From a virus (Duplodnaviria; Caudoviricetes), in IMG/VR virus record IMGVR_UViG_3300033072_000473, positions 1 through 64,000 of that record: a stretch of DNA of 64,000 nucleotides, one strand, 5' to 3'. Within the stretch, counting starts at the first letter, position 1. The number at the start of each line of letters is the position of its first letter. Below are positions 52,719 through 60,109 of this stretch, piece by piece. The position numbers and the translations under genes are program-made. The notes under the pieces are model-generated. The model ran no database searches, was not told the origin of the DNA, and saw nothing but the letters and a program-made list of their open reading frames with translations.

Positions 52719-52728
52719 TGTATTCTTT

Positions 52729-52794
52729 CAACAGGATCGACCTTTTACAAGTCAGATTAGCAGTCTGGTGTATTTTATTTGCTGAAACGATCCT
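52729..52794 (-). ncRNA. Y-RNA-like element E1 (CAGCAA motif) with Ser anticodon-loop mimic
   Basis: Stem aggatcg/cgatcct, then TTTCAGCAA; inner hairpin caga-CTGCTAA-tctg. Confidence 0.6.
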
Positions 52795-52804
52795 AAATAA
52801 GTAG

Positions 52805-52895
52805 TGGCGGGTCGAGAGAGAGTCGAACTCTCAAGGGCTTATTAGGCCTCGACTGTTTTCAAGACAGGTTCCATCGCCAATTGGATTGCCGACCC
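52805..52895 (-). tRNA. tRNA-Ser(TGA)
   Basis: ctgt-CT TGA AA-acag, long variable arm, CCA. Confidence 0.9.
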
Positions 52896-53382: not shown

Positions 53383-53531
53383 TGTAGTTCTCTAAATTTA
53401 GAAATAAACGAATGATATGCTACGTAGGGTGTAGTATGCACTAAAAACCATGCATAAAGTACTTGCTGTACTCTATGTTTAAGTGTTAGTGGATAAACGG
53501 TACGTAGAAACTCTTTTTTGCTTTGAAACAT
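53346..53531 (-). CDS. Hypothetical protein (start moved to MFQSKK)
   Basis: ggag SD 6 nt before the ATG at 53531. Confidence 0.55.
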   Translation of the reverse strand: MFQSKKEFLRTVYPLTLKHRVQQVLYAWFLVHTTPYVAYHSFISKFRELQWDQDKKRGQKS

Positions 53532-53540
53532 AGTATTCTC

Positions 53541-53627
53541 CATCAGGATACTGTGCCTACCATTAGGCTTATCTCGCTAAGACGAAACAATGGAATCGAA
53601 CCATTAAAAATTTTGCTGAAAGTATCC
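53541..53627 (-). ncRNA. YrlA-like RNA E2: CAGCAA stem plus circularly permuted tRNA mimic
   Basis: Stem ggatact/agtatcc + TTCAGCAA; inside, 5'->3': T arm aatgg-TTCGATT-ccatt, 7-bp acceptor-like hairpin gtttcgt-ctta-gcgagat, D-like arm gcct-aatggt-aggc. Confidence 0.75.
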
Positions 53628-53633
53628 AAAAAT

Positions 53634-53751
53634 TGGCCCCGAAACTAGGATTCGAACCTAGAACCTCTCCATTACAAGTGGAAGTTAAAGATGCGGTAAA
53701 TATTCTTACAGAATACTATTTTTAGCGCTCTACCGATTGAGCTATTTCGGG
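53634..53751 (-). tRNA. 118-nt tRNA-Thr(TGT) with a 42-nt insertion between D arm and anticodon arm
   Basis: Acceptor cccgaaa/tttcggg + G + CCA; D arm gctc/gagc; anticodon arm ttcca-CT TGT AA-tggag; T arm ctagg-TTCGAAT-cctag; insertion at 53684-53725. Confidence 0.75.
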
Positions 53752-53758
53752 ATTAAAC

Positions 53759-53836
53759 TGGTCTCAGTGGTAGGATTCGAACCTACGGTTTCCTGCTCCC
53801 AAAGCAGGCGACTTAACCAAACTAGCCTACACTGAG
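53759..53836 (-). tRNA. tRNA-Pro(TGG)
   Basis: ctgc-TT TGG GA-gcag, CCA. Confidence 0.92.
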
Positions 53837-53924: not shown

Positions 53925-54000
53925 TGGTCGTGAGAACAGGATTTGAACCTATAACCAACAGCGTATGAAGCTGCAGCTCTACCACTTGAGCTATCTCACG
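53925..54000 (-). tRNA. tRNA-CAT (elongator Met or Ile2)
   Basis: cagc-TT CAT AC-gctg; paired 1:72, so not initiator. Confidence 0.85.
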
Positions 54001-54002
54001 TT

Positions 54003-54079
54003 TGGTACTCCCTCGCAGACTTGAACTGCGGACCTATCGCTTATCAAGCGATTGCTCTAACCAACTGAGCTAAGGAAGC
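54003..54079 (-). tRNA. tRNA-Ile(GAT)
   Basis: tcgc-TT GAT AA-gcga, CCA. Confidence 0.92.
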
Positions 54080-54603: not shown

Positions 54604-54630
54604 AAAAGAAAAGAGGGCAAATTGCCCTCT
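54604..54630 (-). terminator. Rho-independent terminator after the TROVE-like gene
   Basis: agagggca-att-tgccctct followed by T-run. Confidence 0.7.
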
Positions 54631-54633
54631 ATC

Positions 54634-56049
54634 CTACAAACTATAACGATCGCTCATTACAGCTTTCAGCATAATTGCTTCAGGAGTAAATTCTTCTAAA
54701 TCGCCACTAAGGACTGCCTTCATAATAGAAGGCGAGAATCCCGAAATAAGTGCCACGCCTTGTTGATTAAACTTAGCAGGAACATTATCATTGGCGTTTA
54801 GATTCCAAAATACAACTTTAGGCACTTGATAGCCAGCACGCTGATATTTGCTGGCAATCATTTGCATAGCATTATGGTCGTACTCAGCGCAATGATCGAA
54901 CTGCATATCCGAAAGGATAAGCAAAATTTCAGGCATTTCGCTTTGTGGTACTTGATTTTTCACTGCTACACCCAGCACTTTATCAAAGGCCACATGTAGG
55001 TTAGTATTCATATTCCACAGAGATTTAACCATTTGTTGTGCACGCTGAACTACATCACCTTTGAGGCTAAGTAGTTCAGGAGTACCAGAGAAAGTAAGGA
55101 ACAAATCCTTGAACTTACCCTGGTTCTTTTCACTAAGGTATAAGCCTAGTGAAACTGCAACATCCATGCAGGTAGTTGAACCTTTACTACCGGCTGCACA
55201 ACTCATAGAGCCTGAAACATCTACCATCGGTAGAATACTTGCAGAACCTACGTAGTTTGGCAGCGCTTTCCACTGAGCTACAATCAAATCCTTTTGAGTT
55301 TGGTTATACTCAGCAGTATAATAAAGGTTAGCAACTCCCTTTAGCACGTCATAAGGGTAAACTGCACCAGCATTAACTTTTACAGTTTTATCGCCCTCTT
55401 TAAGTTTAGCTACATATTCTGCGTACTTGGGAGTATTACGGAAAAATGCAGTCTTATAACGTGCATGTGCTAGACTAGGAACATGGGAGAAATTAATCTC
55501 TTCCCACTGCTTAGAGCACATTTGTTGTTCTACAACTTTAGTCAAATTGACTAGAGTTTTACGATAGAACTTTGGTGACCAACCAAGATACTGACGGAAT
55601 TGTTCCGCCACACGGCCTTTACGTGGAGTCCACTTAGCCGCCAGACCGTTGCCTTCGGCAAGAGCTTGGCGCACTAGTTCGAACCCTACGTCTTGCATCT
55701 TAGGGGTTTGAAACGCAAACAAATCATCAAAGCGACCAAGGTCGGGAACCTTTTTAGCTAGACGAATTGCAGACTCCATATCATTCTTTTCCAGATATTG
55801 CAAAATATCACGGAAAATCTGGCGTTCACCTACCCCTTGACGAATATCACGAACCCATTGTGCAATGCGTAGCGCAATATCCTTGTTCTCTACTAGAGCT
55901 GCGACAAAATCAGGAATAATATCCTTACCACGAGATGCACCAATCTTAAAGAAAAGATCAGTACAAGCATTTTCAGTTGCCTTAAATGCTTTCATCCCAT
56001 TCTGGGTACGAACTTCTTGATTTTGTACAGCTTGAGCAAAAGTAGTCAT
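54634..56049 (-). CDS. Ro60/TROVE-like protein with C-terminal VWA domain (DUF2828-type)
   Basis: RDIRQG.GER, AAKW.PRK, I.FSHVPS.A..RY, VNAGAVYPYDV, MIDAS-like DVSGSM, ILSDMQFD, VVFWNL, LISGFSP. Confidence 0.8.
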   Translation of the reverse strand: MTTFAQAVQNQEVRTQNGMKAFKATENACTDLFFKIGASRGKDIIPDFVAALVENKDIALRIAQWVRDIRQGVGERQIFRDILQYLEKNDMESAIRLAKKVPDLGRFDDLFAFQTPKMQDVGFELVRQALAEGNGLAAKWTPRKGRVAEQFRQYLGWSPKFYRKTLVNLTKVVEQQMCSKQWEEINFSHVPSLAHARYKTAFFRNTPKYAEYVAKLKEGDKTVKVNAGAVYPYDVLKGVANLYYTAEYNQTQKDLIVAQWKALPNYVGSASILPMVDVSGSMSCAAGSKGSTTCMDVAVSLGLYLSEKNQGKFKDLFLTFSGTPELLSLKGDVVQRAQQMVKSLWNMNTNLHVAFDKVLGVAVKNQVPQSEMPEILLILSDMQFDHCAEYDHNAMQMIASKYQRAGYQVPKVVFWNLNANDNVPAKFNQQGVALISGFSPSIMKAVLSGDLEEFTPEAIMLKAVMSDRYSL

Positions 56050-56060
56050 TTTTTAAATAT

Positions 56061-56127
56061 CTCCAGGTTAAGTTTTTGGTTTCTTGATAATTTGTAAGAA
56101 ATTTCTGTTTATTGCTGTAGTTAACCT
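56061..56127 (-). ncRNA. Y-RNA-like element E4 abutting the SD of the TROVE-like gene
   Basis: Stem aggttaa/ttaacct + CTACAGCAA; 3' arm runs directly into ggag SD. Confidence 0.6.
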
Positions 56128-56132
56128 AAAAT

Positions 56133-56264
56133 CAACGGGATGCTTTGTAACTGTTTATTAAACGAAAACCGTTACCCAAACGTTCGTCGACACCGATATC
56201 TATAAATAGATATCTGAAAGCCTCGACCATCTCCATAAGTGTATATGGTTGCTGAAGTCATCCC
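56133..56264 (-). ncRNA. Y-RNA-like element E5, multibranched
   Basis: Stem gggatg/catccc + ACTTCAGCAA; inner helices ccata/tatgg, gtcga/tcgac, gatatctat/atagatatc, gtaac/gttac. Confidence 0.6.
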
Positions 56265-56269
56265 AAAAC

Positions 56270-58295: not shown

Positions 58296-58359
58296 AGTTT
58301 ATGAATTCTTTTAATTAAACTCAGAAATAGTATTTTATAAGTTTAATTAAAGTAATTCA

Positions 58360-58660
58360 AGTTTATTTTTCTGTTACTAGGAAAATAAACAAACCCTAAG
58401 CAGTATTTAGGCTGCTAAAGCAAAGGTATTATCGTTTGCGTTTACTTTATTTGCTTTTTACGTCTACTCCTGACGTGTTGCCCTATCAACTATCTCACGC
58501 TGTCGAAACCAGGTCAGGCCCATCAAAAGCATACTAGGGAATCGAACCCCATTTCTAGAATAGTTCCAAACGACCAGAGCGACTGGCAGTATGCTTTTGG
58601 TGGACCTGGGCGGAATCGAACCGCCGTCCAACGCGCCTTTATATCAAAGGTTATACAACA
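58360..58660 (-). ncRNA. ssrA: Circularly permuted (two-piece) tmRNA
   Basis: Acceptor piece (about 58660-58598) ends ggcggTTCGATTccgcc-caggtcc-A-CCA. After a 76-nt spacer, the coding piece starts GGGCCTGACCTGGTTTCGAC at 58521 (G3:U70). Tag GCA AAC GAT AAT ACC TTT GCT TTA GCA GCC TAA = ANDNTFALAA at 58439-58407. Outer ends approximate. Confidence 0.9.
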
Positions 58661-58661
58661 A

Positions 58662-58907
58662 TTACTTACAAGTAGCAAGCCACTTTCTGATTTCTTCTAC
58701 AGTCTTAACACCGCTAATAGAATGTTTACTAGGGAGATGTAGTAGTGTTGGTACTCCGCGGATCATATATTCATCTACAAGATCTGGGTGTACATCAATA
58801 TCTACTACTTCTACATCAATACCTAAATCTGCACTTTCCAAGTTTTTGGCAAGTGCCTTACATGGTTGACACCAACTAGCAGTAAATCTGAGAACTTTTT
58901 CTTGCAT
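58662..58907 (-). CDS. Thioredoxin-like protein (start moved to MQEKVL)
   Basis: WCQPC active site, cis-Pro GVPTL; SD ggag. Confidence 0.88.
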   Translation of the reverse strand: MQEKVLRFTASWCQPCKALAKNLESADLGIDVEVVDIDVHPDLVDEYMIRGVPTLLHLPSKHSISGVKTVEEIRKWLATCK

Positions 58908-59022: not shown

Positions 59023-59343
59023 TGGTACCCGTGGCCGGAATCGAACCGGCATGCTTGCGCGAGGGATTTTAAGCGGTTATGTCCTAAAGTTTCCTAAAGG
59101 CCCGGACTATCTCTTTACCTTCAACACTACTTGTTAAGGTAGTGGGCGTTCTTGCTGGTTATTAAGAGGGCTAAACCTCTCCAGTAGTCTCTACACCTTC
59201 CAATACTGTAGTATTGGCTTGGCTCGCGATTGCCATTTTACAGACTCTCCCGAATTAACCCACAGTTTATCTAACTATTTCTAATTAGAGGGGACTATCA
59301 GTTTCTGCTGATCCCTTGTGTCTTCCTATTTCACCACACGGGC
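59023..59343 (-). tRNA. tRNA-Leu(TAA) interrupted by a group I intron
   Basis: 5' exon gcccgtg...cacaaggga(t); 3' exon (c)ttaaaatccct...gccggTTCGATTccggc-cacgggt-A-CCA. Confidence 0.88.
59074..59310 (-). mobile_element. ORF-less group I intron, about 237 nt, IC3-like core
   Basis: P1 gggaU pairs with Gtccc (U.G); Q ggcaatcgcgagcc, R gtgtagagactac, S aagagatagtcc; GAAA-capped P9; terminal G. Confidence 0.85.
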
Positions 59344-59344
59344 A

Positions 59345-60061
59345 TTATGTTCCATAATGCTTTAAGTTATACTCTTCTAGATCTATTCTGTTTCCTTTTG
59401 CAATATTCTCTTCTGGAGTTAAATATTGCAGATTGGCAACAACGTGTAGCCCAGATACTAGCTCACCTTTTAATGGTAATATATGATCTACATGTAACCC
59501 TTTAGGGCAGTTCCTATAAAATTCTTGTAAACCTTTTATATCTTCCCAATTAACGCACCGTAAAGAACGTTCACCTTTATAGTGCTGATTTCGCTCTAGA
59601 ATTTTAGTATAATTCTTTTCATAAGACCGTTTATGTGCTTCTTTAGTACTGTCTTTTGAATACGCAATTTTATTTAATTCTTTTCTACAACTTTTACAAT
59701 AATGGTGTCTACCACAAGTTGCACTATTGTCTATATCAAATTCTTTGAAGGTCTTTATCTCTCTACAGGAGATACAAAGTTTATACTCAATAAATATTAG
59801 TAATTTCCACTTCCAAGTTTCGTTGCCGCCGTTTAGCTTTCCAAATTTTGGAACAAAGTATTCATCTAATACTCTATTAATGGTTTGCGCACCTCTATTC
59901 AATAGTTTAGCAGCTTTTGGTATTGTACCTTGCTCAAGTATGGCTAAAATCATATCACCGGCCAATACTTCGGCAGTATTGGATCTAGCCTTTCTTAGCA
60001 CTGTATTATACTCTAAATTAAGTTTATTAAGTATTAAAGTTGTTAATTCTTGATTTGTCAT
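59345..60061 (-). CDS. Free-standing HNH endonuclease (start moved to MTNQEL)
   Basis: CxxC pairs; HVDHILPL...GLHVVANLQYL...N..K.N; SD ggagg. Confidence 0.88.
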   Translation of the reverse strand: MTNQELTTLILNKLNLEYNTVLRKARSNTAEVLAGDMILAILEQGTIPKAAKLLNRGAQTINRVLDEYFVPKFGKLNGGNETWKWKLLIFIEYKLCISCREIKTFKEFDIDNSATCGRHHYCKSCRKELNKIAYSKDSTKEAHKRSYEKNYTKILERNQHYKGERSLRCVNWEDIKGLQEFYRNCPKGLHVDHILPLKGELVSGLHVVANLQYLTPEENIAKGNRIDLEEYNLKHYGT

Positions 60062-60080
60062 TTGTGTCCTCCATTTAAAT

Positions 60081-60109
60081 ATTATAAATTTAGAAGACAT
60101 AAAAGTCAA
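60081..60109 (-). promoter_or_regulatory. Promoter of the HNH gene
   Basis: TTGACT-17-TATAAT; spacer tgtcttc can pair with SD ggaggaca. Confidence 0.75.

What the first reader, a model, noticed from the sequence alone, without database searches (positions are those of the whole stretch)
53541..53627. E2 is a compact YrlA-type tRNA mimic (T arm, closed acceptor hairpin, D arm)
Seen: order T arm (TTCGATT loop), 7-bp acceptor-like stem closed by CUUA, 2-nt linker, D-like arm with GG, all enclosed by the motif stem. Established: this T-acceptor-D order with the anticodon replaced by the Ro-binding helix is the YrlA architecture. At about 87 nt it is short, and its terminal helix motif differs from the Y-RNA consensus as I recall it. 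Its 3' end runs into the ggag SD of the next ORF.
Basis: partly seen in the sequence, partly recalled or inferred. Interest (0 to 1): 0.72.

Follow-up and report, generated by a model that had tools for sequence, protein, structure and literature searches.

The report
Phage tRNA-mimic RNA beside Ro60-like gene
E2 is a real, conserved small phage RNA that imitates the elbow and acceptor end of a tRNA inside a conserved terminal "handle". It belongs to a large, apparently undescribed RNA family that travels with a Ro60-like phage protein, so it is most likely a Y-RNA-like partner of that protein.

Summary
On the minus strand at 53546-53627, a 7-bp terminal helix encloses a CAGCAA motif, a T arm with a canonical loop, a 7-bp acceptor-like hairpin closed by CUUA, an AA linker and a D-like arm with GG. 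The element ends at a GGAG ribosome-binding site.

It is not a chance fold. A covariance model built from relatives scores E2 at 72.7 bits. In 75 distinct relatives, 98% of cells pair, 20 of 23 pairs show double changes, and the tRNA 15-48 tertiary pair covaries.

A 471-aa DUF2828/DUF7788 gene ends 1 kb upstream on the same strand. Its model has the whole-length Ro60 fold (Z 17.2 to a phage Ro60). Handle RNAs lie beside this gene in 65 of 83 related phage loci, always on its strand, from mycobacteriophages to Felix O1 and cyanophages.

E2 therefore has YrlA topology and context, but it is not a member of Rfam YrlA. That model gives no hit on E2, the GNCGAA motif is replaced by CAGCAA, and the protein partner is not a Pfam TROVE protein.

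The handle closely resembles the Dictyostelium Class I RNAs. Binding and expression are untested. This scan has found the same system on other DNA (at least 28 notes).

The parts
53621..53627 (-). Handle helix, 5' strand (GGAUACU)
   Evidence: Pairs with 53546-53552 in the MFE fold. The same helix covaries in 75 relatives: 99% paired, 6 of 7 pairs with double changes.
53613..53618 (-). CAGCAA motif, 2-3 nt after the handle's 5' strand
   Evidence: Each letter is conserved in 96-107 of 108 distinct elements from protein-seeded loci. The elements were picked by the model, so conservation is somewhat inflated.
53589..53605 (-). T arm: 5-bp stem AAUGG/CCAUU and loop UUCGAUU
   Evidence: In the family the stem is 100% paired, with 3 covarying pairs.
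53571..53588 (-). Acceptor-like 7-bp hairpin closed by CUUA (3 G-U pairs)
   Evidence: In the family all 7 pairs show double changes. The compact relative L036 has compensatory differences.
53555..53570 (-). AA linker and D-like arm (GCCU / AAUGGU / AGGC) with G18 G19 equivalents
   Evidence: The D stem is 99% paired in the family. A14 is present in 64 of 66 and U8 in 63 of 66 members; E2 has A8. The 15-48 pair covaries, and E2 has A15-U48.
53544..53552 (-). Handle helix, 3' strand (AGUAUCC), plus the conserved UG
53529..53541 (-). GGAG ribosome-binding site and the likely start codon (AUG at 53531-53529) of a 61-aa ORF that runs to 53346
   Evidence: Sequence and ORF list. The first in-frame AUG, at 53543, overlaps the end of the element.
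54634..56049 (-). Ro60-like protein gene (471 aa, DUF2828 + DUF7788), the presumed protein partner
   Evidence: Pfam. phrog_850 'RNA-binding protein', E 4.6e-139. AlphaFold model with pLDDT 71 and pTM 0.72. The 12 best Foldseek matches are all Ro60. VIA-align Z 17.2-11.1 over about 380 residues to ten Ro60/TROVE entries, with vWA-only matches at 9.6 or less.
52728..52797 (-).
   Evidence: R1 34.7 bits; sequence; Pfam.
53684..53725 (-). 42-nt insert between the D arm and anticodon arm of tRNA-Thr(UGU) (53637-53751).
   Evidence: Rfam tRNA 49 bits with a 55-nt insertion; sequence; R1 28.6 bits over 53705-53803.
56060..56130 (-).
   Evidence: Sequence. R1 27.5 bits with filters off. Rfam Dicty_Class_I_RNA 21 bits, below threshold.
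56132..56267 (-).
   Evidence: Sequence; R1 26.4 bits.

Best explanation
E2 is a small non-coding RNA of about 85-92 nt, made from the phage's tRNA-cluster transcript. It has two modules.

The first is a conserved handle: a 6-7-bp terminal helix, CAGCAA on the 5' side, and CUG(U) at the 3' end. This handle is shared by at least four other elements in this window and by hundreds in other phages. I infer that it is the binding site of the neighbouring Ro60-like ring protein (DUF2828/DUF7788), as the conserved stem of a Y RNA is for Ro60.

The second is a circularly permuted tRNA core: T arm, closed acceptor stem and D arm, with the handle helix standing where the anticodon stem would be. I infer that it folds into a tRNA-like elbow. 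It would present that elbow to proteins that recognise tRNA shape (processing, modifying or repair enzymes, or host tRNA-targeting nucleases), so tethering or baiting them at the Ro-like particle.

Shown here: the structure, its conservation and covariation, the tRNA-type tertiary pair, the Ro60 fold of the protein model, and the genomic linkage.

Inferred: protein binding, the effector, and the biological role (tRNA quality control or counter-defence).
For: Structure:
- MFE equals centroid, z = -2.65.
- Model R1 scores E2 at 72.7 bits.
- In 75 distinct relatives, 98.2% of cells pair and 20 of 23 pairs show double changes. The covariation score is 0.816, against 0.195 for shuffles and at most 0.158 for slid controls.

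tRNA-like three-dimensional fold:
- Positions 15 and 48 covary (G-C 21, A-U 19, U-A 4). Mutual information is 0.51 against 0.07 in shuffles (0 of 2000 reach it), and 0.14-0.18 for neighbouring-position controls.
- U8 is present in 63 of 66 and A14 in 64 of 66 members, and GG is in the D loop of 69 of 75.

Protein:
- The whole-length Ro60 fold is the top match by two aligners.
- Mycobacteriophage homologues are annotated 'Ro-like RNA binding protein'.

Linkage:
- 65 of 83 loci fetched through the protein hold handle RNAs. All 123 hits lie on the gene's strand, and 44 end within 100 nt of its start codon.
- In reverse, 46 of 118 loci fetched through an RNA pattern alone contain the gene. Four of 9 further contigs carry it elsewhere, including the only complete one.

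Breadth:
- Mycobacteriophage Whirlwind has three tandem handle RNAs, the middle one tRNA-like at 69 bits, between the gene and a terminator.
- Felix O1 and a Synechococcus phage also have them.

Topology matches published YrlA, and Rfam YrlA is the best non-tRNA match to longer relatives (34-38 bits).
Against: - No binding or expression data exist.
- The handle lacks the GNCGAA/GGUCCGA motif that Ro60 proteins are known to contact.
- The protein matches Ro60 by fold only. There is no sequence-level match to TROVE or to solved Ro60 chains.
- In the PhageMaP preprint, the Ro60-like gp130 of the Felix-O1-like phage Bas63 restored T7 growth on a Ppl host when expressed alone. At least that activity therefore does not need phage handle RNAs. 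I did not verify that gp130 belongs to the same protein family.
- E2 lies 1 kb downstream of the gene, beyond a terminator-like hairpin, so co-transcription with the gene is not evident.
- E2 abuts a ribosome-binding site, which would also fit a cis-acting role.
Confidence: 0.62

Rival explanations
1. E2 is a cis-acting leader or processing element of the polycistronic tRNA-cluster transcript. The handle and tRNA-like fold would direct cleavage by RNase P, RNase Z or RNase E, or would control translation of the ORF that starts a few nucleotides downstream. The Ro-like protein would be at most a regulator, for example of its own mRNA.
For: - E2's 3' end runs into GGAG and AUG.
- E4 ends in CCUGGAG just before the Ro-like gene, and E1 sits just before a phosphoesterase ORF.
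- 44 of 123 hits end within 100 nt of the Ro-like start codon.
- AGUAU of the 3' handle strand could instead pair with AUACU next to the start codon (seen in the sequence).
Against: - Most relatives end in CCUGUU and are not followed by a ribosome-binding site. Many are followed by another handle RNA or a tRNA.
- A leader does not need a covarying full tRNA core with the 15-48 pair.
- The alternative hairpin does not appear in the MFE fold of the extended sequence.
Confidence: 0.15
2. E2 is a tRNA-derived decoy or a permuted tRNA gene that acts independently of the Ro-like protein. The family would consist of circularly permuted tRNAs opened at position 26/27. These would either be matured (ends joined, acceptor loop cut) into working tRNAs, or be displayed as baits for host tRNA-cleaving defence nucleases.
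For: - Many relatives keep a canonical anticodon arm plus variable loop before the T arm. In one subfamily only the three anticodon letters vary (GAA, GCA, ACG, GUA, GGA, UAG, AUG).
- Several acceptor loops begin ACCA, like a discriminator base plus CCA.
- 27 of 68 short handle RNAs carry an anticodon-loop-like hairpin, against 1.4 expected by chance.
- The tRNA-Thr in this window carries the handle as an insert at 26/27, the reverse permutation.
Against: - E2 has no anticodon arm and no CCA in its 4-nt acceptor loop, so it cannot become a decoding tRNA.
- No RtcB or RNA ligase was found in the 87-kb record; the host could supply one.
- The tight, strand-specific linkage to the Ro-like gene is unexplained if the protein plays no part.
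- The decoy idea is compatible with the main explanation rather than opposed to it.
Confidence: 0.15
3. E2 is a decayed remnant: a tandem-tRNA junction or pseudogene that happens to fold, with no function of its own.
For: - A tandem tRNA junction in this window (53955-54061) also matches the T-acceptor-D order, at 29 bits.
- E2's acceptor stem has 3 G-U pairs, and E2 has A8 instead of U8.
Against: - E2 scores 72.7 bits and has the full handle with CAGCAA.
- There are no flanking tRNA halves, and no tRNA is called by ARAGORN or Rfam.
- The same compact form, with an identical T arm and compensatory changes in the acceptor stem, occurs in phages whose Ro-like proteins are only about 63% identical.
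Confidence: 0.04

Closest known systems
YrlA, the bacterial and phage Y-RNA-like tRNA mimic (Rfam RF02553; Chen et al. 2014, PMC4201824; bioRxiv 10.1101/312249)
   Same: - Order of parts: 5' conserved motif, optional V arm, T arm, closed acceptor stem-loop, D arm, with the ends paired.
- Covariation of the 15-48 pair.
- Encoded within 4 kb of a Ro60-fold protein gene, on the same strand.
- Several differently built RNAs sharing one protein-side module per genome (as YrlA and YrlB do).
   Different: - No RF02553 match on E2, and 34-38 bits on relatives against a gathering score of 69.
- CAGCAA plus a covarying 6-7-bp helix and CUGU(U) tail in place of GNCGAA(N)G.
- The partner protein is DUF2828/DUF7788, not Pfam TROVE.
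- E2 lacks the V arm.
- Many copies lie scattered through a tRNA array.
Thermus phage phiLo Ro60 with Yrl1/Yrl2 (PMC12135203; PDB 9KOP, 9L5Y)
   Same: A phage-encoded Ro60-fold protein. It is the best structural match of the window's protein (Z 17.2, 382 residues aligned). Its partner RNAs are encoded next to the gene.
   Different: Yrl1 and Yrl2 were picked by a CGAA motif in a stem-bulge-stem and are not described as tRNA-like. Sequence identity is about 12%.
Dictyostelid Class I RNAs (Rfam RF01414; Kjellin et al. 2021, PMC7919456)
   Same: The handle is nearly the same:
- conserved A-G start, and a first G paired to the C of a conserved 3' CUGU
- a 6-bp stem that covaries
- a motif ending in ACAGCAA right after the 5' strand
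- an A-rich stretch before the 3' strand
- a variable interior, and a length of 42-65 nt (short phage elements are 55-70 nt)

Phage elements score 21-32.5 bits against RF01414, below its gathering score of 41.5.
   Different: - Class I RNAs are eukaryotic, with their own promoters, and are reported as absent outside Dictyostelia.
- None is described as tRNA-like.
- The known direct binder is the RRM protein Rnp1A/CIBP.
- E2 itself gives no RF01414 match.
Bas63 gp130, the Ro60-like anti-Ppl protein of a Felix-O1-like coliphage (bioRxiv 10.1101/2024.10.10.617714)
   Same: A Ro60-like protein encoded directly upstream of the tRNA array. The authors guessed that some 'tRNA genes' there may be Y RNAs. 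The Felix O1 homologue of the window's protein is 39% identical and sits in the same position.
   Different: No partner RNA was identified there. gp130 alone sufficed against Ppl in T7. I did not check directly that gp130 is a homologue.
Circularly permuted tRNA genes of some algae and archaea, and two-piece tmRNA (from my own knowledge; a permuted tmRNA is in this window)
   Same: The 3' half (T arm, acceptor 3' strand) comes before the 5' half (acceptor 5' strand, D arm).
   Different: Those are matured into working molecules with open acceptor ends. E2 has a 4-nt closed acceptor loop and no anticodon arm, and no sign of a splicing-type motif was found.

Membership tests
YrlA (Rfam RF02553) | Match to the family covariance model at or above its gathering score (69 bits) | tested here: not met
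   No match on E2 at E <= 10, in an 1101-nt search and in a 131-nt search. Relatives score 33.6-38.3 bits.
YrlA (Rfam RF02553) | T arm, closed acceptor-like stem-loop and D arm in that order, with the 5' and 3' ends paired | tested here: met
   description in PMC4201824.
YrlA (Rfam RF02553) | GNCGAA(N0-1)G motif near the 5' end (proposed Rsr contact) | tested here: not met
   Absent from 53541-53631. CAGCAA stands at the equivalent place.
YrlA (Rfam RF02553) | Encoded within about 4 kb of a Ro60 (TROVE) gene, on the same strand | tested here: inconclusive
   A Ro60-fold gene ends 1003 nt upstream on the same strand. However, it matches Pfam DUF2828/DUF7788, and no TROVE match exists in the 87-kb record.
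YrlA (Rfam RF02553) | tRNA-type tertiary pairs, with 15-48 covariation | tested here: met
   Mutual information 0.51 against 0.07 in shuffles, 0 of 2000 reaching it. E2 has A15-U48, but A8 instead of U8.
Y RNA in the functional sense (RNA partner of a Ro60-type ring protein) | Physical binding to the Ro-type protein through the conserved stem | not testable with these tools
   Only genomic linkage is available: 65 of 83 loci, 123 of 123 hits on the same strand, and 46 of 118 in the reverse direction.
Y RNA in the functional sense (RNA partner of a Ro60-type ring protein) | Accumulates as a discrete small RNA | not tested
Dictyostelid Class I RNA (Rfam RF01414) | Match to the family model at or above its gathering score (41.5 bits) | tested here: not met
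   E2: no match. Window E4: 21 bits. Short relatives in L035: 32.5 and 25.5 bits.
Dictyostelid Class I RNA (Rfam RF01414) | Short terminal stem with a conserved first G, a motif ending in ACAGCAA after the 5' strand, and a 3' CUGU | tested here: met
   Phage consensus is UUUAG-stem-NWW-CAGCAA...AAAAA-stem-CUGUU. E2 has G-stem, UUCAGCAA and CUGA.
tRNA (RF00005) / functional permuted tRNA gene | Anticodon arm, and an acceptor end that can be opened to carry CCA | tested here: not met
   No tRNA call by ARAGORN or Rfam on E2. There is no anticodon arm, and the acceptor loop is CUUA.
Ro60/TROVE protein family (for the neighbouring gene) | HEAT-repeat ring plus C-terminal vWA domain | tested here: met
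   Model: helices 28-262, then an alpha/beta domain 272-447. Whole-length matches to ten Ro60 entries, Z 17.2-11.1. Foldseek probability 1.0.
Ro60/TROVE protein family (for the neighbouring gene) | Sequence match to Pfam TROVE (PF05731) or to solved Ro60 chains | tested here: not met

The most novel reading that the evidence does not exclude
The CAGCAA handle is the universal docking site of a second, unstudied branch of Ro60-type ring proteins (DUF2828/DUF7788). The phage RNAs that carry it form a modular display system for tRNA parts: elbow plus acceptor in E2, anticodon loops in the short forms, whole tRNAs in others. The system would bait or recruit tRNA-recognising enzymes during infection. 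The orphan Class I RNAs of Dictyostelium would then be the eukaryotic members of the same RNA-protein system, which predicts a DUF2828-type protein among their partners.
Probability: 0.3. Interest if true: 0.85.

Novelty: new variant of a known kind. Interest (0 to 1): 0.7.

Why it matters
Ro60-Y RNA particles are a conserved but poorly understood RNA-surveillance machine. Bacterial YrlA showed that they can carry a tRNA mimic.

E2 and its relatives show a parallel, far more widespread phage version, with a different protein branch and a different handle. It sits inside tRNA arrays of phages of Proteobacteria, Firmicutes, Actinobacteria and Cyanobacteria. 711 isolate records carry the protein.

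If the pairing is real, three things follow:
- It gives a function to hundreds of unannotated intergenic stretches.
- It supplies the missing RNA partners for a protein reported to defeat a bacterial defence.
- It makes the role of the long-orphaned Dictyostelium Class I RNAs directly testable.

Tried and rejected
- Rfam YrlA, tRNA and every other family on E2: nothing meaningful. ARAGORN calls no tRNA there.
- blastn of E2 and its flanks against 50,697 phage records: no match. The family is too diverged for DNA similarity; it was found through a structural descriptor and a covariance model instead.
- Pfam TROVE, RtcB and RNA ligase in the 87-kb record: none. The record is estimated 83% complete.
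- Sequence and profile searches of the protein against solved structures: nothing relevant. Only fold comparison shows the Ro60 relation.
- Tandem-tRNA-junction artefact: considered, because one such junction scores 29 bits. Rejected for E2.
- Splicing-type (bulge-helix-bulge) processing of a permuted tRNA: considered from the permuted layout. The leader and trailer (UUUUA / UGUUG) show no pairing, and I found no support.
- Pairing of CAGCA with UGUUG: possible on paper, but it would cross the handle helix, and the last G is not conserved. Not pursued.
- Literature on DUF2828: only incidental plant and tardigrade mentions.
- Avesson et al. 2011 (Class I RNA pull-down) is not held. DDB_G0281243 appears only in the Kjellin preprint, so I could not check whether it is a DUF2828 protein.
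- The ESM Atlas returned only viral DUF2828 clusters.

Full report
**Setting.** The window is part of an 87,211-nt IMG/VR virus record, estimated 83% complete. From about 51.9 to 62.1 kb the minus strand carries:
- a large tRNA array of 21 ARAGORN calls plus others
- a permuted tmRNA
- a tRNA-Leu with a group I intron

E2 lies in this array, 6 nt after the CCA of an unusual tRNA-Thr and directly before a small ORF.

**The observation.**
- helix GGAUACU (53627-53621) with AGUAUCC (53552-53546)
- CAGCAA (53618-53613)
- T arm with loop UUCGAUU (53605-53589)
- a 7-bp hairpin closed by CUUA (53588-53571; three G-U pairs)
- AA linker
- D-like arm with GG (53568-53555)
- then UG, GGAG (53541-53538) and an in-frame AUG at 53531

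ViennaRNA returns this fold as both the minimum-energy and the centroid structure: -23.3 kcal/mol, z -2.65, 1 of 200 shuffles as good. The fold survives added flanks.

**Relatives and structure.** DNA similarity found nothing. A hand-written descriptor (T arm, hairpin, 1-3 nt, D arm) run over loci fetched through the neighbouring protein found seven clear relatives. They share the same ends: UUUAG-helix-NNN-CAGCAA at the 5' end and helix-CUGUU at the 3' end.

A covariance model (R1) built from these eight sequences found 126 matches in 83 protein-seeded loci plus the window, all on the protein's strand. An RNA-only pattern scan of IMG/VR then gave 118 more loci. R1 found 81 matches at E < 1e-7 in 80 of them.

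On those 75 distinct sequences:
- 98.2% of cells are standard pairs.
- 20 of 23 pairs have changes on both sides.
- The covariation score is 0.816, against 0.195 for shuffles (0 of 500 reach it) and at most 0.158 when partners are slid by 1-3 columns.

The alignment is fitted to the model, and the T loop, CAGCAA and CUGUU were fixed by the search pattern. The stems were not fixed, and all four covary.

The positions equivalent to tRNA 15 and 48 also covary: G-C 21, A-U 19, U-A 4. Mutual information is 0.51, against 0.07 in shuffles (0 of 2000 reach it) and 0.14-0.18 for adjacent-position controls. U8 and A14 are nearly invariant.

E2 is a compact member. It has no V or anticodon-like arm and no A-rich tract, and it has A8 in place of U8. 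The same compact form, with an identical T arm and compensatory acceptor-stem changes, occurs in phages whose partner proteins are only about 63% identical. E2 is therefore not a wreck.

**The neighbouring protein.** ORF 54634-56049 (minus strand, 471 aa) matches Pfam DUF2828 plus DUF7788 and phrog_850 'RNA-binding protein' over its full length. It matches neither TROVE nor any solved chain by sequence.

An AlphaFold model built from 25 homologues (pLDDT 71, pTM 0.72) has a helical repeat region followed by an alpha/beta domain. Foldseek's 12 best PDB matches are all Ro60 (E 4.5e-7 to 2.4e-5, probability 1.0). VIA-align gives Z 17.2 and 16.2 to the Thermus phage phiLo Ro60 (382 residues aligned, rmsd 4.2). 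It gives Z 14.2-11.1 to frog, human and Deinococcus Ro60. vWA-only matches score 9.6 or less.

The protein occurs in 711 isolate phage records, including Felix O1-like phages and Cronobacter, Vibrio, Campylobacter, Listeria, Staphylococcus and Bacillus phages. It also occurs in mycobacteriophages, where it is annotated 'Ro-like RNA binding protein'.

**Linkage.**
- 65 of 83 protein-seeded loci hold at least one handle RNA within about 4 kb.
- 123 of 123 hits are on the gene's strand; 118 lie upstream, and 44 end within 100 nt of the start codon.
- In reverse, 46 of 118 RNA-seeded loci contain the gene within the short fetched stretch.
- Of 9 further contigs tested whole, 4 carry the gene elsewhere, including the only complete genome. 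The rest are fragments, 3-61% complete.

In mycobacteriophage Whirlwind, three handle RNAs follow the gene in tandem and precede a terminator. The middle one is tRNA-like (R1 69 bits; Rfam YrlA 38 bits at the same spot). Felix O1 and Synechococcus phage BUCT-ZZ01 also have members.

With filters off, R1 finds five handle-bearing places in this window:
- E2 (72.7 bits)
- 52728-52797 (34.7 bits)
- the insert region of tRNA-Thr (28.6 bits)
- 56060-56130 (27.5 bits)
- 56132-56267 (26.4 bits)

**Comparison with the known.** Published YrlA has a 5' GNCGAA(N)G motif, an optional V arm, a T arm, a closed acceptor stem-loop and a D arm. It lies within 4 kb of a TROVE gene on the same strand, and it was found in 22 phages with TROVE-annotated genes. 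E2 shares the topology and the type of context but fails three membership criteria: the Rfam model, the motif, and a Pfam-TROVE partner.

Phage Ro60 with partner RNAs is itself known (phiLo, PMC12135203). A preprint reports that the Ro60-like gp130 of the Felix-O1-like phage Bas63 counters the Ppl defence, and it guesses that some neighbouring 'tRNA genes' are Y RNAs. I found no paper or Rfam family that describes the CAGCAA-handle RNAs of phages.

**An unexpected resemblance.** Short relatives score 32.5 and 25.5 bits against Rfam's Dictyostelium Class I RNA model (gathering score 41.5). The window's E4 scores 21 bits. The resemblance is point by point:
- a conserved A-G start
- a first G paired to the C of a conserved 3' CUGU
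- a 6-bp stem that covaries
- a motif ending in ACAGCAA directly after the 5' strand
- an A-rich run before the 3' strand
- a variable interior

These features appear. Class I RNAs are reported as unique to Dictyostelia and have no known mechanism. One of their four pull-down proteins, DDB_G0281243, has no known function. I could not test whether it is a DUF2828 protein.

**tRNA parts on display.** Among tRNA-like relatives, many keep a canonical anticodon arm. In one subfamily only the three anticodon letters vary, and several acceptor loops start ACCA. Among short handle RNAs, 27 of 68 carry a hairpin with a Y-U-NNN-R-N loop, against 1.4 expected by chance. The tRNA-Thr next to E2 carries the handle as a 42-nt insert at position 26/27, which is the reverse permutation.

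The family thus looks like a set of tRNA pieces mounted on one handle. E2 is the member that shows only the elbow and acceptor.

**Mechanism.** My best reading, at 0.62, is a Y-RNA-like RNA. The handle docks on the Ro-like ring. The tRNA-like core recruits or baits a tRNA-recognising factor. The purpose would be tRNA quality control or counter-defence during infection.

Structure, conservation, protein fold and linkage are shown. Binding, expression, the effector and the role are inferred.

Rivals:
- a cis-acting leader or processing signal (0.15)
- a protein-independent decoy or permuted tRNA (0.15)
- a relic (0.04)

The fact that gp130 alone worked in T7 warns that at least one activity of the protein may not need these RNAs.

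**Earlier notes of this scan.** I had reached the Ro60 fold, the family and the Class I resemblance before reading the other-genome notes. One of those notes gave me the pointer to the Bas63 preprint, which I then read myself.

Noticed in passing
window 53637-53751 (-), insert 53684-53725: tRNA-Thr(UGU) has all four arms and CCA, but also a 42-nt insert between the D arm and anticodon arm. The insert carries the handle closed by a loop (AGUAUUCUGU-AA-GAAUAU, then CCGCAU in place of CAGCAA). ARAGORN misses this tRNA; Rfam scores it 49 bits.
   Followed up: partly
window 58353-58713 (-): A permuted (two-piece) tmRNA with tag ANDNTFALAA. Its intervening segment holds another T-loop-bearing element closed by a 10-bp helix AAAGCAUACU/AGUAUGCUUU (about 58520-58600). 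Synechococcus phage BUCT-ZZ01 also has a permuted tmRNA near its Ro-like gene (L204 1737-2137).
   Followed up: no
window 59023-59343 (-): tRNA-Leu(UAA) interrupted by a group I intron (Rfam 59.6 bits), with an HNH/endonuclease VII-like ORF (59345-60109) ending just upstream.
   Followed up: no
window 52809-52895 (-): A long-variable-arm tRNA (anticodon loop CUUGAAA, probably Ser-UGA). ARAGORN misses it. Rfam matches it only as tRNA-Sec at 41.7 bits, below the gathering score.
   Followed up: no
window 54612-54630 (-): A strong terminator-like hairpin (8 bp, 5 G-C, then a U run) directly after the stop codon of the Ro60-like gene. E2 may therefore not be co-transcribed with the gene.
   Followed up: no
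loci L001-L083 (alignment A3); window 52728-52797; L203 5682-5745: Short handle RNAs mostly display an anticodon-stem-loop mimic: 27 of 68, against 1.4 expected. The 'anticodons' vary. The window's E1 and the third element of mycobacteriophage Whirlwind share the loop CUGCUAA.
   Followed up: partly
alignment A4 (e.g. L100, L089, L097, L137, L154): One tRNA-like subfamily keeps the anticodon stem UCUUU/AAAGA and the rest of the molecule, but varies only the three anticodon letters (GAA, GCA, ACG, GUA, GGA, UAG, AUG). Several other members have acceptor loops that begin ACCA.
   Followed up: partly
L124 5473-5681, L129 5324-5518, L103 10240-10446, L123 3412-3586: Some tRNA-like members carry 60-100-nt insertions inside the acceptor-hairpin loop, and their T loops read UGCAAAU. 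The content of the insertions was not examined.
   Followed up: no
window 53955-54061 (-): The junction of two adjacent tRNA genes scores 29 bits with model R1, because T arm, acceptor strands and D arm follow each other there. This is a false-positive class to filter in any wider search.
   Followed up: yes
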